DNA of 64,000 bases, from the NCBI RefSeq assembly GCF_054482595.1, contig NZ_CM137008.1. One strand, written 5' to 3'. Positions 1-51,080 of the stretch are shown here, piece after piece (position 1 is the first letter of the stretch; each line of letters begins with the position of its first letter). Both the position numbers and the translations under genes were made by a program. Below the pieces are notes generated by a model. It was not told the origin of the DNA and did no database searches. It saw only the letters and a program-made list of their open reading frames with translations.

Positions 1-678
1 TAAGTAACGATGCGTCATGGCATCGTTATGCCATGAGGCGGGTAACTCGATGCGATCCGCCATTTCACCTTCCGGGACATCCAGCACCTGCTGTAAGGGT
101 GAAACCGATTTGCAATACCAGTAGCGGGCGAAATCATCGGCAACGTCCTCTACTACGGGTCCTATTGCCATGACATCTAAATCCGAAAAAAGTGGCTCTT
201 CCCCTGCCCCAAAATAGGCATCACCAATATTTCGCCCCCCTACCAGCGTCACCACGCCATCGACAGTGAAACTTTTATTGTGCATACGGCGATTGAGACG
301 GGAAAAGTCGGTGATATAACCAAGCGGACGCAGCAAGCGAAACGAGAAAGGATTAAAAAGCCGGACTTCAATGCGGGGATGGCTGTCAAGCAAGCGTAAA
401 ATGTCGTCAAGTCCGGGCGTATTGTTGTCGTCCAGCAACAAACGGACGCGAACGCCACGCTTTGCTGCGGCTAACAGGGCGGAAAACAGTAACCGACCCG
501 ACATATCGTCCTGCCAGATGTAATACTGAACATCCAGCGTATGCTCTGCCATTTCGGCCAGAAGATACCGGGCGGCAAACGCATCCAGACTTTTCTCCAG
601 AGGGAAAAGACCACACTGACCGGGATGTTGCGAACACAGTGGCAGCACCGCGCTCGCCAGCCGGGGCAAATCATTCAT
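1..678 (-). CDS. clsC: cardiolipin synthase C (phospholipase-D family); N-terminal ~226 codons, 3' end lies beyond window start
   Basis: Manual minus-strand translation from ATG 678..676 gives [58 protein letters not shown]... open to position 1, with an HxKxxxxD (HNKSFTVD) motif. Absent from the ORF track because no stop lies inside the window. Start overlaps the ymdB stop; synteny ymdA-ymdB-clsC as in K-12. Confidence 0.8.
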
Positions 679-1204
679 CTCCTTGTTGGGTAAGGAGTCT
701 TTCGTAGAGGTGGGCGTTTTCTTCATCATAACAGACAAAGTATACCTGTTCGGGTAAAGCGTGACGGGTAATAAATTCTGAAACGGTTTTTACTGCGATT
801 TCAGCCGCTGCCGCACGAGGGTAACCATAAACCCCAGTACTGATTGCAGGAAAAGCCACTGACGTATAGCTGTTTGCCGCCACCAGTCGCAGGCTATTGA
901 GATAGGCATCCTGCAAAAGCTGGTCTTCGTTTTGTTCACCACCACGCCAGACTGGCCCGACGGTGTGCACTACGGCTTTAGCGGGAAGATCGCCTGCAAG
1001 CGTAATAACGGCATGCCCCGTAGGGCAATCGCCCTGCTGTTGCCTGACTTTTAAACAAGCATCCAGCAGGGCCGGACCCGCTGCGCGATGAATGGCCCCA
1101 TCGACGCCGCGCCTCCCATTAATGACGGATTAGCCGCATTCACAATCACATCAACGGCCAGTTTGGTAATATCACCCTGCACAACATGAATACGCGTTTT
1201 CATA
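671..1204 (-). pseudogene. ymdB: macrodomain O-acetyl-ADP-ribose deacetylase YmdB, disrupted by a 1-bp deletion
   Basis: ATG at 1204..1202 translates [31 protein letters not shown], then goes out of frame inside the conserved GGGGVDGAIH codon run (+ strand reads gacgccgcgcctcc around 1105-1115, one c short) and stops near 1051. The C-terminal 99 codons (ORF 671..970, [10 protein letters not shown]...QQGDE) are in another frame. Confidence 0.75.
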
Positions 1205-1297
1205 ACGCCTCCTTACACCTTCTTGTTTCTTAAGTGTACAGCAGGCTTTTTGGTTAAATCGCATTTTTCTGCTCAGCAACGTGAGTTGTTCAGAAAC

Positions 1298-9372: not shown

Positions 9373-9460
9373 GGTGAGGTGTCCGAGTGGCTGAAGGAGC
9401 ACGCCTGGAAAGTGTGTATACGGCAACGTATCGGGGGTTCGAATCCCCCCCTCACCGCCA
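9373..9460 (+). tRNA. serX: tRNA-Ser (anticodon GGA), class II with long variable arm, 88 nt
   Basis: GGTGAGGTGTCCGAGTGGCTGAAGGAGCACGCCTGGAAAGTG...GGTTCGAATCC...CTCACCGCCA; 7-nt anticodon loop CUGGAAA; T-loop GGTTCGAATCC; encoded CCA. Confidence 0.92.
9447..9460 (+). repeat. attL core: 14-bp direct repeat (ccccctcaccgcca) forming the serX 3' end
   Basis: Identical 14-mer recurs at 51067..51080 in the same orientation, immediately before a terminator-like hairpin that would be the native serX downstream sequence. Confidence 0.65.
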
Positions 9461-9466
9461 GATTAT

Positions 9467-9499
9467 AAGCGCATGTTATTGTTTAACATGCGCTTTTTT
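9467..9499 (+). terminator. rho-independent terminator immediately after serX (island-encoded side)
   Basis: Hairpin agcgcatgtta / taacatgcgct followed by ttttttatt. Confidence 0.55.
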
Positions 9500-9609
9500 A
9501 TTTATCCTTCCGGACAGTATGCCATCGGGTATGCCATCTGAAACCGGTTTATATGCCCCGCGATCATATCTTATCGGACAATTTCCGATCTTTGAGCATA
9601 CTGGCAAAG

Positions 9610-10452
9610 CTATACTGCCAGCATGTCAGGATAGTGTTTTGCGATAATATCATTCAGTCTGTCAACCAGTTCTGGTTTCCTGAACGTGATGTGTGCGGAG
9701 CCCTTCTTAAAGTATCTGATGCTGAACATCTCATCTTCATAGTCCTCTTTACCCTGAACAGACTGGATGTGGTCATCCAGACGAAGGGTGATGTTTTCCC
9801 GGTTGTCGGGGATCGGTTTGCCGCTGAACAGGTGCAGCATTCTTTCCAGGTCGGCAAGTCGATCTACCTGGTGCCCGGTGATAAGATGAAATCCCCACCG
9901 GTCCCATCTCACCAGATTGTTGACGATAATTTTACTGCCAAATTTACAGGGGCAATTAGTTTTGTAATTCCAGCTCAATCCCCTGAAGACGTTGATCACC
10001 CCTCGCTCAAACACTTCATCTTTGTTCTGGTGCAGTTGTTCAAATGTGCTCAGAATGTTCGCTTCACTGACTTCCGGAAAATTATCATACTCCAGTGACC
10101 GGTACCATGTATCACGGGCCTGTGCATCCATTAAGGAAAGCATCCCTGAACGTTGCATCAGGTCACGCCAGATTTCTCGGTCAAGATTCCGGGTAATGGC
10201 TTTCATTGCTGTTTCGGGTTTCTCCATCAGCCAGCAACCGCAGCGAAAATCCTGTTTCATGGCCCAGTCCGGGGCGGTTTTACCTCCAATACTTTCTGTC
10301 ATTGATGAGATTTCAGCCAGTTGCCGGATAAGTGTGTCGATTTGCAGCAGTGTACTCTTTCGTACAGCCAGAATGTGGCTGACTGAGGTTGAGCAGATAA
10401 CGTCCGTATGCCCGTTGACCACTTCCGGATGGGAGAGTGTGATTGCAGACAT
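9610..10452 (-). CDS. conserved island protein, probably DUF4942 family (280 aa)
   Basis: ORF track; position downstream of the CbtA toxin module at the island end as in CP4-like elements. Family name recalled, not searched. Confidence 0.5.
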   Translation of the reverse strand: MSAITLSHPEVVNGHTDVICSTSVSHILAVRKSTLLQIDTLIRQLAEISSMTESIGGKTAPDWAMKQDFRCGCWLMEKPETAMKAITRNLDREIWRDLMQRSGMLSLMDAQARDTWYRSLEYDNFPEVSEANILSTFEQLHQNKDEVFERGVINVFRGLSWNYKTNCPCKFGSKIIVNNLVRWDRWGFHLITGHQVDRLADLERMLHLFSGKPIPDNRENITLRLDDHIQSVQGKEDYEDEMFSIRYFKKGSAHITFRKPELVDRLNDIIAKHYPDMLAV

Positions 10453-18339: not shown

Positions 18340-18395
18340 CCACCATAAACGATCGATGACAACGATCGATACCTGTTTTATCGATCGTTTTATTC
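18340..18395 (-). promoter_or_regulatory. agn43 phase-variation switch: three clustered GATC (Dam) sites overlapping the OxyR operator
   Basis: GATC at 18351, 18364 and 18383 within 36 bp, ~220 bp upstream of the flu start; matches the known Dam/OxyR switch architecture. Confidence 0.7.
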
Positions 18396-47632: not shown

Positions 47633-47893
47633 ATGGAGAACAATATGTCAACCCAGACCGGACATTTTTATACCCCCTCACGCATCCTGCGTATGGCTGA
47701 ACTTACCCGACTCCTTGGTATATCAAGATCGACCATCTACGAAAAAATGAATCCGGCATCAAAATACTACGATGCCACCTTTCCCCGGCCTGTCCGGCTT
47801 GGGAGTTCGGCTGTAGGCTGGCGGGCATCTGCCATTGATGAGTGGTTAACTTTACATACAACACCAACCAGATCCGTAACTAAGGATAAATAA
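47633..47893 (+). CDS. alpA: AlpA-family phage transcriptional regulator (excisionase-like)
   Basis: ...ILRMAELTRLLGISRSTIYEKMNPASKYYDATFPRPVRLGSSAVGWRASAIDEWL resembles recalled CP4-57 AlpA. Confidence 0.75.
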   Translation: MENNMSTQTGHFYTPSRILRMAELTRLLGISRSTIYEKMNPASKYYDATFPRPVRLGSSAVGWRASAIDEWLTLHTTPTRSVTKDK

Positions 47894-49697: not shown

Positions 49698-50906
49698 TCA
49701 TCGCTGGTTTTCCATAATCTGAGACATCACATAATCCGCCCATGCCTGCATCATCGGTATACGCTGATCCAGCAGATCAGTCCGGTGATATGCCGCCTCA
49801 ACCTTATTTTTCAGCGTATGGGCAAGCGCCCTTTCCGCCAAATCCCGCGAATATCCCTGTTCGCTACACCAGTCCCTGAATGTTGAACGAAAACCATGTG
49901 CTGTAGCCACTCGTCCGGGTATATCACTGATGGCCTTCTTTTTACGCAGAAAACTCGTCAACACCATATCTGAAAGGATCTGCTGCTTTCTGGGAGAAGG
50001 AAACACCAGTTCGTCATGCAGACCACGTATATTTTCCAGAACGTGAATGGCCTGTCGGGATAAAGGAACACGATGCTGTATCCTGGCTTTCATTCTTTCT
50101 GCGGGTATCGTCCATATCCGCTTATGAAAATCAATTTCAGCCCAGCGCATTCCCCTTGCTTCGCCCGAGCGGGTTGCTGTCAGTATCACCATTAATAACA
50201 GTGCCCGGGTAACATTATAAGGTTCATCTGTATACACACTGGTCGCCACAAAAAGCGGTAACTGCCTCCAGGGCATTGCCGGCTGGTGTTCATCACGTCC
50301 TCTTGATTGCTGTGGAAGCAAATGATCAACCACATCAACAGGATTCGCCACACAAAAACCATGCGCCCAGCCCCACTGCATAACAACATGAATGCGCTGT
50401 TTAACCCGGCTTGCCGTTTCTGACAAGGTTAACCAGACTGGACGCAGTGTTTCTGCCACGTCCGCAGCCGTAATCGAATCCAGCGTTTTTGCTCCCAGTT
50501 GAGGAAACGCGTAATTCTCAAGCGTCGATAACCACTGCCTTACATGCTTTGGATTTTCCCATCCAGGAGACAGTTCTGCATGTACACGCCTGGCTGCATC
50601 GGCAAATGTTGGGATAACAACTTTTTCAGCTTCAGCCTTTTTAATCTCCAGAGGATCATCACCTGCAGCAAGTTGCTCTCGCATTATCCGGGCAGTACGT
50701 GCAGCTTCAGCAATACTGACCTCAGGATAAGTTCCCAATCCAGCATTACGCCTTTTTTGTGTCACCGGACTTACATAACGAAAAACCCATTTACCCCTCC
50801 CCTTTACTGAAGAAGGATGAAGAGTCAGTCCTGTAATTCCCCCATGGGGCAATGGTTTGTCATCAGGTTTGATATGCCTTGCTTTAGTATCCGTCAATAC
50901 TGCCAT
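49698..50906 (-). CDS. int: P4-type tyrosine integrase (402 aa)
   Basis: N-terminal MAVLTDTKARHIKPDDKPLPHGGITGLTLHP...YPEVSIAEAARTARIMREQLAAG (DUF4102-like arm-binding domain); C-terminal catalytic HGFRSTFRDW and AAYHRTDLL (Tyr). Confidence 0.9.
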   Translation of the reverse strand: MAVLTDTKARHIKPDDKPLPHGGITGLTLHPSSVKGRGKWVFRYVSPVTQKRRNAGLGTYPEVSIAEAARTARIMREQLAAGDDPLEIKKAEAEKVVIPTFADAARRVHAELSPGWENPKHVRQWLSTLENYAFPQLGAKTLDSITAADVAETLRPVWLTLSETASRVKQRIHVVMQWGWAHGFCVANPVDVVDHLLPQQSRGRDEHQPAMPWRQLPLFVATSVYTDEPYNVTRALLLMVILTATRSGEARGMRWAEIDFHKRIWTIPAERMKARIQHRVPLSRQAIHVLENIRGLHDELVFPSPRKQQILSDMVLTSFLRKKKAISDIPGRVATAHGFRSTFRDWCSEQGYSRDLAERALAHTLKNKVEAAYHRTDLLDQRIPMMQAWADYVMSQIMENQR

Positions 50907-51066
50907 ACGCTAATTCCTGTTACTCTGGTATGCCATTCAGTATGCCATTAGTCTCTCACTTCACTAAGAATACATTAGATAACATCGGACAGAAAAAATT
51001 GTAATGCATTGTTTATAATAAGGTTATATAACACTCCCGGATTAAGTCAGATTTATTTCAGGCGGT

Positions 51067-51080
51067 CCCCCTCACCGCCA
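51067..51080 (+). repeat. attR core: 14-bp direct repeat of the serX 3' end
   Basis: ccccctcaccgcca identical to 9447..9460; followed by the displaced terminator. Confidence 0.65.

What the first reader, a model, noticed from the sequence alone, without database searches (positions are those of the whole stretch)
50928..50949. Matched pairs of GTATGCCAT(C/T) repeats just inside both island ends: candidate integrase arm-type sites
Two direct copies spaced 12 bp apart occur at 9517-9526 and 9529-9538 (57-78 bp inside attL) and again at 50928-50937 and 50940-50949 (~120 bp inside attR, between int and the core), all in the same orientation. Paired sites at the same spacing near both att cores are what is expected for arm-type binding sites of a tyrosine integrase or recombination directionality factor.
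Basis: seen in the sequence. Interest (0 to 1): 0.45.

Follow-up and report, generated by a model that had tools for sequence, protein, structure and literature searches.

The report
Integrase arm sites at island ends
Two matched pairs of a 9-base repeat just inside both ends of a 41.6-kb E. coli serX genomic island are almost certainly the accessory ("arm") docking sites of the island's own integrase. This is an expected, ordinary part of such elements, now pinned to exact bases for a medically relevant island family.

Summary
GTATGCCAT(C/T) occurs exactly four times in the window, as two same-strand tandem pairs with a 12-bp period. One pair lies 57-78 bp inside attL (serX). The other lies 118 bp inside attR, 22 bp upstream of the int start codon. 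No simulated sequence reproduced this arrangement.

- The integrase has an N-terminal Arm-DNA-bind_3 domain.
- The pair is the best-conserved block of the int-proximal arm in relatives with 71-76% identity.
- In a motif-only metagenome scan, 82 of 120 hits fell into the two predicted places: next to an Int homologue, or 44-72 nt after a tRNA 3' end.
- One diverged island (Int 70% identical) carries both pairs about 53 kb apart.
- 59 of 79 homologues have a lineage-specific 12-bp-period tandem upstream of int, against a 7% background.
- The N-domain is better conserved than the rest of the protein where the motif is kept, and less conserved where the motif changed.

The closest characterised parallels are the ICEMlSymR7A IntS P1-P5 sites, P4 Int and KplE1 IntS. 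These also suggest that Int represses its own gene, which here is inference only.

Verdict: a new member of a known kind, of modest interest.

The parts
9373..9460 (+). serX tRNA-Ser(GGA). Its last 14 bp (9447-9460) are the attL copy of the core direct repeat.
   Evidence: ARAGORN and an exact repeat search. The repeat is identical to the published direct repeat of OI-43/48 and SRL-PAI (PMC3064760).
9467..9495 (+). Island-borne terminator hairpin followed by a T-run. It replaces the tRNA's native terminator and sits between the core and the P' pair.
   Evidence: Terminator scan. The same layout (tRNA end, hairpin, pair) appears in all diverged P' arms inspected.
9517..9526 (+). P'-arm site 1 (GTATGCCATC)
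   Evidence: The GTATGCCA unit is invariant in 5 E. coli variants.
9529..9538 (+). P'-arm site 2 (GTATGCCATC), 12 bp after site 1
   Evidence: The P'-type context was found 30 times in the metagenome scan.
9552..9560 (+). Possible degenerate third P' site (ATATGCCCC). Weak and not conserved: it reads GTATGAGCC in other E. coli islands.
   Evidence: Inference only.
50928..50937 (+). P-arm site (GTATGCCATT), proximal to int. Its end is 22 bp from the int ATG.
   Evidence: It forms 9 consecutive invariant columns in the alignment with relatives of 71-76% identity.
50940..50949 (+). P-arm site (GTATGCCATT), 12 bp after the previous one and 118 bp from the core
   Evidence: The P-type context was found 45 times in the metagenome scan.
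49698..50906 (-). int: a 402-aa P4/CP4-type tyrosine integrase with Arm-DNA-bind_3, Phage_int_M and Phage_integrase domains
   Evidence: Pfam. The N-domain matches the solved CP4-like integrase N-domains 3JTZ and 3JU0. It is about 95% identical at the DNA level to the O157:H7 island integrase.
51061..51079 (.). attR core: the perfect inverted repeat GGCGGT / ACCGCC around a 7-bp spacer CCCCCTC. These are presumed core-type Int half-sites and the overlap region. The direct repeat spans 51067-51080.
   Evidence: Read directly from the sequence. The pattern TGGCGG-N8-G(T/A)C(C/T)GC(C/T) is conserved in relatives. Function is inferred.
47633..47893 (+). AlpA-family protein, the presumed recombination directionality factor of the island
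   Evidence: Pfam PF05930, E 7e-19.
51002..51014 (-). IHF-consensus-like site (1 mismatch) between the P pair and the core
   Evidence: Consensus scan. Weak and not conserved.
50984..50991 (+). ATCGGACA, the P-arm copy of a second motif shared by both arms. Its binder is unknown, and it is a candidate site for the directionality factor or another accessory protein.
   Evidence: k-mer analysis. The GTCCRAT block is conserved in relatives.
9573..9590 (+). P'-arm copy of the second motif. It forms a palindrome of 6-bp arms, ATCGGA (9574-9579) and TCCGAT (9585-9590), around a 5-bp spacer CAATT.

Best explanation
The four GTATGCCAY copies are the arm-type (P and P') binding sites of the island's own P4/CP4-type tyrosine integrase.

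In the excised circle the two island ends join into one attP, ordered as follows: int start, 22 bp, P pair, 118 bp, core (GGCGGT-CCCCCTC-ACCGCC), 56 bp containing a terminator hairpin, then the P' pair. All four sites point the same way. The integrase binds two kinds of DNA. Its catalytic and core-binding domains hold the core half-sites. Its N-terminal Arm-DNA-bind_3 domain binds the tandem 12-bp-spaced arm sites. The intervening DNA bends, probably with IHF or other accessory proteins, so that arm-bound and core-bound subunits bridge into the intasome. That complex carries out integration into serX or serW and, together with AlpA, excision.

The P pair sits between any possible promoter and the Shine-Dalgarno sequence of int. 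Int bound there probably also represses its own transcription.

Shown here: the sequence anatomy, the domain content of Int, conservation and positional specificity in relatives, and co-variation with the N-domain. Inferred: physical binding, which sites serve integration versus excision, DNA bending, and autorepression.
For: (1) Int has an Arm-DNA-bind_3 N-domain (E 1.7e-15). This domain is homologous to the solved CP4-like integrase N-domains 3JTZ, 3RMP and 3JU0. The literature describes it as the arm-binding domain of the IntSXT/P4 subgroup (PMC8138268).

(2) There are exactly four copies, as two pairs with identical period and orientation, one on each attP arm. Measured from the overlap centre they lie at -138/-126 and +71/+83. 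None of 100 simulations gave a motif in two separate pairs.

(3) In Edwardsiella, Budvicia, Limnobaculum and a MAG (Int 71-76% identical), the int-upstream region has diverged. ATGGCATAC x2(-3) at a 12-bp period is still retained as the longest invariant block.

(4) A metagenome scan used the motif pair alone. Of 120 loci, 45 have the pair 10-37 nt upstream of an Int homologue; 26 of those homologues are 55-75% identical. Another 30 have it 44-72 nt after the 3' end of a tRNA-Ser or tRNA-Asp, behind an island-borne terminator, and 7 more are P'-like.

(5) L234 (P arm, Int 70% identical) and L235 (P' arm, tRNA-Ser) lie on one contig, on the same strand, about 53.4 kb apart.

(6) Family-wide, 59 of 79 homologues (32-76% identical) have a tandem 8-mer at exactly a 12-bp period within 100 nt upstream of int, against 7.0% of random windows. 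The motif differs between lineages: TGGGGGTA, TGGCGGTA, TGGTGGTA, TGTGGGGC, ATGGCATAC.

(7) Co-variation with the N-domain. It is 81-84% identical (the rest of the protein 67-70%) where the motif is kept. It is 44-49% identical (the catalytic part 56-62%) where the motif changed. It equals or exceeds the rest of the protein in 21 of 23 further diverged motif-keepers.

(8) The contiguous attP of phage RSY1 shows the same plan: pair, core, single site, pair, int, all in one orientation.

(9) Experimental precedent. ICEMlSymR7A IntS has five P sites (TGKTGGTATC), all needed for integration by attP plus intS alone, and IntS represses PintS (PMC11963761). KplE1 IntS and P4 Int repress their own genes through arm sites that overlap the promoter (PMC2951348).
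Against: - There is no binding or mutational data for this element. I could not read the SRL-PAI attP paper (Turner 2004) to check whether such sites were mapped.
- No sigma-70-like promoter was predicted upstream of int, so the autoregulation step rests on geometry and analogy.
- The IHF-like site is weak, is not conserved, and exists on one arm only.
- A second conserved motif (ATCGGACA/GTCCRAT) on both arms is unassigned, so the protein-DNA map is incomplete.
- The same 9-mer pair also occurs next to two unrelated integrase subfamilies. In principle this could point to a shared, non-Int binder.
Confidence: 0.8

Rival explanations
1. The pairs are binding sites of the AlpA-family recombination directionality factor, which would bend the arms to favour excision and/or regulate int, rather than sites of the integrase.
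For: An AlpA gene lies 3 kb from int. Directionality factors commonly bind short tandem direct repeats. RdfS and TorI bind near integrase promoters.
Against: Characterised directionality-factor sites lie on one arm only, whereas these pairs are on both. The motif is unchanged in Budvicia, where AlpA is only 45-48% identical while the Int N-domain is 82-84% identical. An AlpA homologue is detectable within 3 kb in only 16 of 80 relatives, although 59 of 79 have the 12-bp tandem. In ICEMlSymR7A the homologous P sites work with attP and intS alone.
Confidence: 0.08
2. The int-proximal pair is only a transcriptional operator or promoter element of int, bound by some regulator. The serX-proximal pair would then be unrelated to recombination, for example a second operator or decoy.
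For: The P pair ends 22 bp from the ATG and must overlap the int leader or promoter. Integrase autoregulation is documented in related systems.
Against: The P' pair sits about 40 kb from int, next to the tRNA, and faces the 3' end of a convergent gene (9610-10452, minus strand). Yet it is conserved at 44-72 nt from the tRNA end in 30 or more diverged elements. That placement makes sense only in the joined attP. Operator and arm-site roles are also not mutually exclusive.
Confidence: 0.05
3. The pairs are a chance similarity or a relic of duplicated end sequence, with no function.
For: Short repeats are common near island ends.
Against: None of 100 simulations gave such a case. The flanks and spacers differ between the two pairs. 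The motif shows strong positional conservation across relatives of 55-76% identity.
Confidence: 0.01

Closest known systems
IntS attP of the Mesorhizobium symbiosis island ICEMlSymR7A (P1-P5 arm-type sites, consensus TGKTGGTATC)
   Same: It has a P4-type tRNA-targeting integrase and roughly 10-bp G-rich, TA-containing arm motifs on both sides of the core, including sites directly upstream of the integrase gene. All its sites are needed for integration with attP and intS alone, and IntS represses its own promoter (PMC11963761). Relatives sampled here carry TGGTGGTA tandems that match this consensus.
   Different: The motif sequence differs (GTATGCCAY/ATGGCATAC). Here I see 2+2 clear sites rather than five. 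The integrase gene here lies at the tRNA-distal end of the island. The directionality factor is AlpA-type rather than RdfS. Nothing has been tested experimentally here.
SRL-PAI of Shigella flexneri and the tellurite-resistance/adherence islands OI-43/OI-48 (SpLE1) of E. coli O157:H7
   Same: These are the same element family. They share the identical 14-bp direct repeat TGGCGGTGAGGGGG at serX/serW (PMC3064760). The integrase is about 95% identical at the DNA level and sits next to ycdU. The same P and P' pairs are present in O157.
   Different: The cargo differs: here a polysaccharide gene cluster, Ag43, a CbtA/YeeU toxin-antitoxin pair and IS elements. I found no accessible description of arm-type sites for this family, and the key attP paper could not be read.
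Satellite phage P4 Int/attP and the KplE1 prophage IntS/TorI attL
   Same: These are heterobivalent integrases whose arm-type sites overlap the integrase promoter, giving negative autoregulation (PMC2951348). That P4 attP has repeats flanking the core is from my own knowledge (Pierson & Kahn 1987).
   Different: In those elements int lies next to the tRNA (attL side). The arm motifs differ (KplE1 sites contain TAAA). Their directionality factors (Vis, TorI) are different proteins.
Phage lambda Int arm sites P1, P2, P'1-P'3
   Same: The logic is the same: an N-domain binds arm sites about 55-140 bp from the crossover, tandem sites sit on the P' arm, and bending proteins lie between arm and core. 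This is established knowledge, summarised in PMC2951348 and PMC8138268.
   Different: The arm-binding domain is of a different subfamily, the spacing is 12 bp, all four sites point the same way, and int is transcribed away from the core rather than towards it.

Membership tests
Arm-type (P/P') sites of a heterobivalent tyrosine integrase | The cognate integrase has an N-terminal arm-binding domain | tested here: met
   PF13356 Arm-DNA-bind_3 covers residues 4-92, E 1.7e-15. It is homologous to 3JTZ and 3JU0.
Arm-type (P/P') sites of a heterobivalent tyrosine integrase | The repeats are unrelated to the core sequence and lie on both arms of attP within about 150 bp of the crossover | tested here: met
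   In the reconstructed attP the pairs lie at -139/-127 and +70/+82 relative to the core start. The motif is unlike the core half-sites GGCGGT/ACCGCC.
Arm-type (P/P') sites of a heterobivalent tyrosine integrase | The sites are conserved in related elements while the surrounding arm DNA diverges, at fixed positions relative to int and to the tRNA | tested here: met
   Both arms occur on one diverged island (L234/L235).
Arm-type (P/P') sites of a heterobivalent tyrosine integrase | The site sequence co-varies with the integrase arm-binding domain | tested here: met
   The N-domain is 81-84% identical where the motif is kept and 44-49% where it changed. It equals or exceeds the rest of the protein in 21 of 23 further cases. 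Motifs are lineage-specific across 79 homologues.
Arm-type (P/P') sites of a heterobivalent tyrosine integrase | The Int N-domain binds the sites directly and specifically | not testable with these tools
   This needs EMSA or footprinting.
Arm-type (P/P') sites of a heterobivalent tyrosine integrase | The sites are required for integrative and/or excisive recombination | not testable with these tools
   This needs attP mutagenesis with integration and excision assays.
Recombination directionality factor (AlpA/Xis-type) binding sites | The sites are confined to one arm, between the core and the arm-type sites | tested here: not met
   Identical pairs occur on both arms. The P' pair is the outermost recognisable element on its arm.
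Recombination directionality factor (AlpA/Xis-type) binding sites | The site sequence tracks the directionality-factor protein rather than Int | tested here: inconclusive
   Budvicia AlpA is 45-48% identical while the motif is unchanged, and AlpA was detected near int in 16 of 80 loci. However, only 3 kb was searched.
SRL-PAI / OI-43/48-type serX/serW islands | A 14-bp direct repeat TGGCGGTGAGGGGG formed from the 3' end of serX or serW | tested here: met
   9447-9460 and 51067-51080 match the published repeat.
SRL-PAI / OI-43/48-type serX/serW islands | A closely related P4-family integrase at the tRNA-distal end, next to ycdU | tested here: met
   94.8% DNA identity to the O157:H7 island integrase, with the same flank.

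The most novel reading that the evidence does not exclude
The same GTATGCCAT tandem at the same 12-bp period also sits where arm sites would be next to two other integrase subfamilies whose N-domains show no detectable similarity to this one. The first is a Firmicute-type integrase with Arm-DNA-bind_4, where the pair abuts the int stop codon. The second is an actinobacterial integrase, where one pair lies about 20 nt upstream of int and a second lies 203 bp away across a tRNA. If this is not chance, a particular arm-site 'word' and spacing either recurs by convergence on the common arm-binding fold or moves between integrase lineages with swapped arm modules.
Probability: 0.12. Interest if true: 0.55.

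Novelty: new member of a known kind. Interest (0 to 1): 0.3.

Why it matters
This integrase family moves islands that carry multidrug resistance in Shigella (SRL-PAI) and the tellurite-resistance, urease and Iha island of E. coli O157:H7. About a quarter of complete E. coli genomes carry one of its ends: int in 1260 and the P' arm in 1355 of 5426 genomes.

Knowing the exact arm sites and the core geometry has three practical uses:
- It defines a minimal attP of about 230 bp for integration vectors and excision assays.
- It gives precise targets for mutations that would immobilise or mobilise the island.
- It provides a simple signature for delimiting related islands in genomes: tRNA 3' end, terminator, then a 12-bp-phased pair at one end, and a pair 10-37 nt upstream of int at the other.

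The wider result is that 75% of sampled homologues have a lineage-specific 12-bp tandem just upstream of int. This could help predict arm sites for the whole Arm-DNA-bind_3 integrase group.

Tried and rejected
- **Literature.** The three primary Shigella SRL-PAI look-ups all failed: PubMed id 14982802, then PMC353151 (Turner 2004) and PMC95444 (Turner 2001). I therefore could not establish whether arm sites were already mapped. A full-text search for the literal motif returned only unrelated primer sequences.
- **Promoter scan.** No sigma-70-type promoter was found upstream of int. Hand inspection gave only weak candidates, so I make no claim about the transcription start.
- **Looser motif scan.** Scanning viral contigs with GTATGCCA-N4-GTATGCCA was swamped by coding repeats (GGT ATG CCA CCx/CAA, giving Gly-Met-Pro-Pro/Gln) in phage proteins. 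Adding the trailing T removed these.
- **Short flanks.** The genome-contig scan used 3-kb flanks, so the far (P') ends of those relatives could not be reached. The metagenome motif scan compensated for this.
- **Close phage relatives.** Phage records hold only homologues of 40% identity or less. They were useful for architecture (RSY1) but not for this motif.
- **IHF.** There is one site with one mismatch on the P arm, none on the P' arm, and it is not conserved.
- **Third site.** A third site at 9552-9560 was rejected as unreliable because it varies within E. coli.
- **Extra 9-mer.** ATACTGCCA at 50897 and 9612 was considered as an extra site pair. The first copy is the int start codon region, so its sequence is constrained by coding.

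Full report
**Observation**

GTATGCCATC lies at 9517-9526 and 9529-9538, and GTATGCCATT at 50928-50937 and 50940-50949. All four copies are on the + strand with a 12-bp period. They are the only exact copies in the window, and one-mismatch copies are not enriched (8 found, 9.5 expected).

The tRNA-Ser(GGA) gene is at 9373-9460. The 14-bp direct repeat CCCCCTCACCGCCA is at 9447-9460 and 51067-51080. The pairs are therefore 57-78 bp inside attL and 118-139 bp inside attR. The flanks and spacers of the two pairs differ, so this is not a duplicated block.

Among all exact tandem 9-mers in the window (periods 9-15), only this motif forms two separate pairs. No such case arose in 100 Markov simulations.

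**Context**

The window holds a 41.6-kb island (9461-51066) inserted at serX, between serX and ycdU. Its right end encodes a 402-aa integrase (49698-50906, minus strand) with Arm-DNA-bind_3, Phage_int_M and Phage_integrase domains. An AlpA-family protein (47633-47893) and a DUF3987 protein lie nearby.

The direct repeat is identical to the published repeat of the O157:H7 islands OI-43/48 and of the Shigella SRL-PAI (PMC3064760). The O157 integrase is about 95% identical at the DNA level and has the same position next to ycdU. So this is a member of that known island family with different cargo: Ag43, CbtA/YeeU, a polysaccharide gene cluster and IS elements.

The int end occurs in 1260 of 5426 complete E. 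coli genomes and the serX-proximal arm in 1355.

**Anatomy of the joined site**

Joining the two ends as in the excised circle gives this order:

- int ATG
- 21 nt containing the Shine-Dalgarno sequence
- the P pair
- 118 bp
- the core
- 56 bp containing a terminator hairpin (9467-9495)
- the P' pair

The core is a perfect inverted repeat GGCGGT/ACCGCC around a 7-bp spacer CCCCCTC (51061-51079). That is the usual form of two core-type half-sites around an overlap region. The pattern recurs in relatives. Measured from the overlap centre, the arm sites are at -138/-126 and +71/+83, similar to the lambda layout.

**Conservation on the int-proximal arm**

Integrase homologues were fetched from 100,044 species genomes. 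They include Edwardsiella, two Budvicia islands, Limnobaculum and a MAG, at 71-76% identity.

Their int-upstream DNA has diverged. All still keep two or three copies of (A/G)TGGCATAC at a 12-bp period, 23-25 nt before the ATG. In the alignment this is the longest invariant block, longer than the core. In each 7-kb locus the 8-mer occurs essentially only there.

Relatives at 50-56% identity have TGTGGGGCT x2-3 at the same place and period.

**Generality**

Of 79 homologues (32-76% identical), 59 have a tandem 8-mer (at most 1 mismatch) at exactly a 12-bp period within 100 nt upstream of int. Only 7.0% of random 100-nt windows from the same loci do. The motifs are lineage-specific variants of a G-rich, TA-containing word: TGGGGGTA, TGGCGGTA, TGGTGGTA and others.

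TGGTGGTA matches the experimentally supported arm consensus TGKTGGTATC of ICEMlSymR7A IntS. All five of its P sites are needed for integration by attP and intS alone (PMC11963761).

Phage RSY1 (integrase 37% identical) has a contiguous attP with the same plan: pair, core, single site, pair, int, all in one orientation.

**Conservation on the tRNA-proximal arm, and both arms together**

| Class | Loci | Description |
|---|---|---|
| P type | 45 | Pair 10-37 nt upstream of an Int homologue on the opposite strand (17 above 90% identity, 26 at 55-75%, 2 below 55%) |
| P' type | 30 | Pair 44-72 nt after the 3' end of a tRNA-Ser (27 loci) or tRNA-Asp (3 loci) |
| P'-like | 7 | CCGCCA 30-85 nt upstream, no full tRNA in the locus |
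| Other | 38 | Not classified |

In the P' arms the pair always follows an island-borne terminator hairpin, and the surrounding sequence is otherwise unrelated.

L234 (P type, Int 70% identical) and L235 (P' type) are on one contig, on the same strand, about 53.4 kb apart. That is a diverged island with matched pairs at both ends.

Within E. coli, GTATGCCA is invariant in both P' copies, while the spacer, the 9th base and the flanks vary.

**Who binds the sites**

The N-terminal domain of Int is homologous to solved N-domains of CP4-like integrases (3JTZ, 3RMP, 3JU0). The literature describes it as the arm-binding domain of the IntSXT/P4 subgroup (PMC8138268).

| Relatives | N-domain (1-95) identity | Identity elsewhere |
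|---|---|---|
| Keep ATGGCATAC (Int 71-76% identical) | 81-84% | 67-70% (rest of protein) |
| Changed motif (L008-L010) | 44-49% | 56-62% (catalytic part) |
| 23 further diverged relatives that keep the motif | mean 67.4% | mean 62.9% (rest of protein) |

In the last group the N-domain is at least as conserved as the rest in 21 of the 23.

By contrast, Budvicia AlpA is only 45-48% identical although the motif is unchanged. An AlpA homologue was detectable within 3 kb of int in only 16 of 80 loci. Sites on both arms are also not what is seen for characterised directionality factors. I therefore assign the pairs to Int (confidence 0.8) and give the AlpA reading about 0.08.

**Likely second role**

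The P pair ends 22 bp from the ATG, just upstream of the Shine-Dalgarno sequence. The int transcript must therefore start within or upstream of the pair.

In KplE1 and P4 the integrase represses its own gene through arm sites that overlap the promoter (PMC2951348). In ICEMlSymR7A, IntS also represses its own promoter, PintS (PMC11963761). The same is plausible here. It remains inference, because no consensus promoter was found.

**What remains unexplained**

- A second short motif occurs on both arms: ATCGGACA at 50984, and a palindrome ATCGGA-caatt-TCCGAT at 9574-9590.
- A GTCC[GA][ATG]T block lies upstream of int in 31 of 79 homologues, against 5.1% background.
- TGGAY repeats fill the region between pair and core in many diverged P arms. 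These are candidates for AlpA or another accessory protein.
- The same GTATGCCAT pair also lies beside a Firmicute-type integrase with Arm-DNA-bind_4 (pair abutting the int stop codon).
- It also lies beside actinobacterial integrases, with two pairs 203 bp apart across a tRNA. The N-domains show no detectable similarity. Given the motif-based search, chance or convergence cannot be separated.

**Verdict**

This is an expected component of a known kind of system, a P4-type heterobivalent integrase attP. It is now defined base by base for the SRL-PAI/OI-43/48 island family, with a family-wide 12-bp tandem signature as a by-product. Interest is modest (0.3). Novelty: a new member of a known kind.

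Noticed in passing
window 50984-50991, 51038-51042, 9510-9515, 9573-9590; loci L004-L083, 70-185 nt upstream of int: A second short motif (ATCGGACA / CCGGAY; GTCCRAT on the int strand) occurs on both arms and forms a palindrome in the P' arm. A GTCC[GA][ATG]T block lies upstream of int in 31 of 79 homologues against 5.1% background. TGGAY repeats at a spacing of about 10 bp fill the region between pair and core in many diverged P arms. These are candidate sites for AlpA or another accessory protein.
   Followed up: partly
window 51061-51079: The attR/attP core is a perfect inverted repeat GGCGGT / ACCGCC around a 7-bp spacer CCCCCTC. The equivalent pattern TGGCGG-N8-G(T/A)C(C/T)GC(C/T) is conserved in relatives that target other tRNAs.
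   Followed up: partly
L187 61-81 and int 82-1227(-); also L090, L110, L177, L183, L207: A low-GC prophage family has GTATGCCATattGTATGCCAT abutting the stop codon of a 381-aa integrase with an Arm-DNA-bind_4 domain, a different subfamily. A third copy, GTATGCCGT, lies 118 bp further in. The 9-mer and the 12-bp period are the same as in the E. coli island.
   Followed up: partly
L269 (oriented) 1806 and 2009; L311 and L312 (one contig): High-GC, actinobacterial-type contigs have one GTATGCCAT pair about 20 nt upstream of a 420-431-aa integrase. In L269 a second pair lies 203 bp away, across a tRNA on the opposite strand, which looks like a contiguous attP. The N-domain is not similar to the E. 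coli Int.
   Followed up: partly
L178 1540-1640; L299; L304: A P'-type arm (direct repeat, terminator, GTATGCCAT pair) directly follows the int-proximal end of a different island whose integrase is 35-40% identical and has its own arm motif. This suggests tandem islands stacked at one tRNA gene.
   Followed up: partly
viral loci L084-L203 (e.g. L104, L162, L203): Most GTATGCCA-N4-GTATGCCA hits in viral contigs are coding repeats (GGT ATG CCA CCN/CAA, giving Gly-Met-Pro-Pro/Gln runs) in phage proteins. They are a source of false positives for this motif.
   Followed up: yes
window 9467-9495; P' arms in L217, L218, L235, L243, L248, L256, L258, L291: Nearly every P' arm inspected carries its own terminator hairpin and T-run between the tRNA 3' end and the pair. 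The island therefore supplies a new terminator for the tRNA it interrupts. In L235 this hairpin nearly matches the host's native terminator beyond the other end (L234).
   Followed up: partly
window 50897-50905 and 9612-9620: The 9-mer ATACTGCCA occurs once on each arm. The first copy overlaps the int start codon (ATGGCAGTAT on the int strand resembles the arm site ATGGCATAC). This is probably a coincidence of coding constraint.
   Followed up: no
window ~9600-47600 (L215 annotation): The island cargo includes an Ag43/Cah autotransporter, CbtA/YeeU toxin-antitoxin genes and a type I restriction-modification M subunit abutting an IS1. It also carries many IS fragments and a polysaccharide cluster (glf, rfbB ABC transporter, several glycosyltransferases, a pyruvyl transferase).
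   Followed up: no
L003 4406-4542 (E. coli NCTC 86), next to attR: Some E. coli genomes have an extra element of about 190 bp, annotated as RtT sRNA, between the island's attR core and ycdU. It is followed by a second pseudo-core (AATCCCCCCCTCACCGCCA) and a second copy of the native terminator.
   Followed up: no
L005 4626 and 4672: In one Budvicia island, two further TGGCATAC copies 46 bp apart lie about 430 bp downstream of the int stop codon.
   Followed up: no
window 18348-18370, 7833, 51255, 55772: These are the other exact tandem 9-mers in the window (AACGATCGAT at period 13, and others). They were not examined.
   Followed up: no
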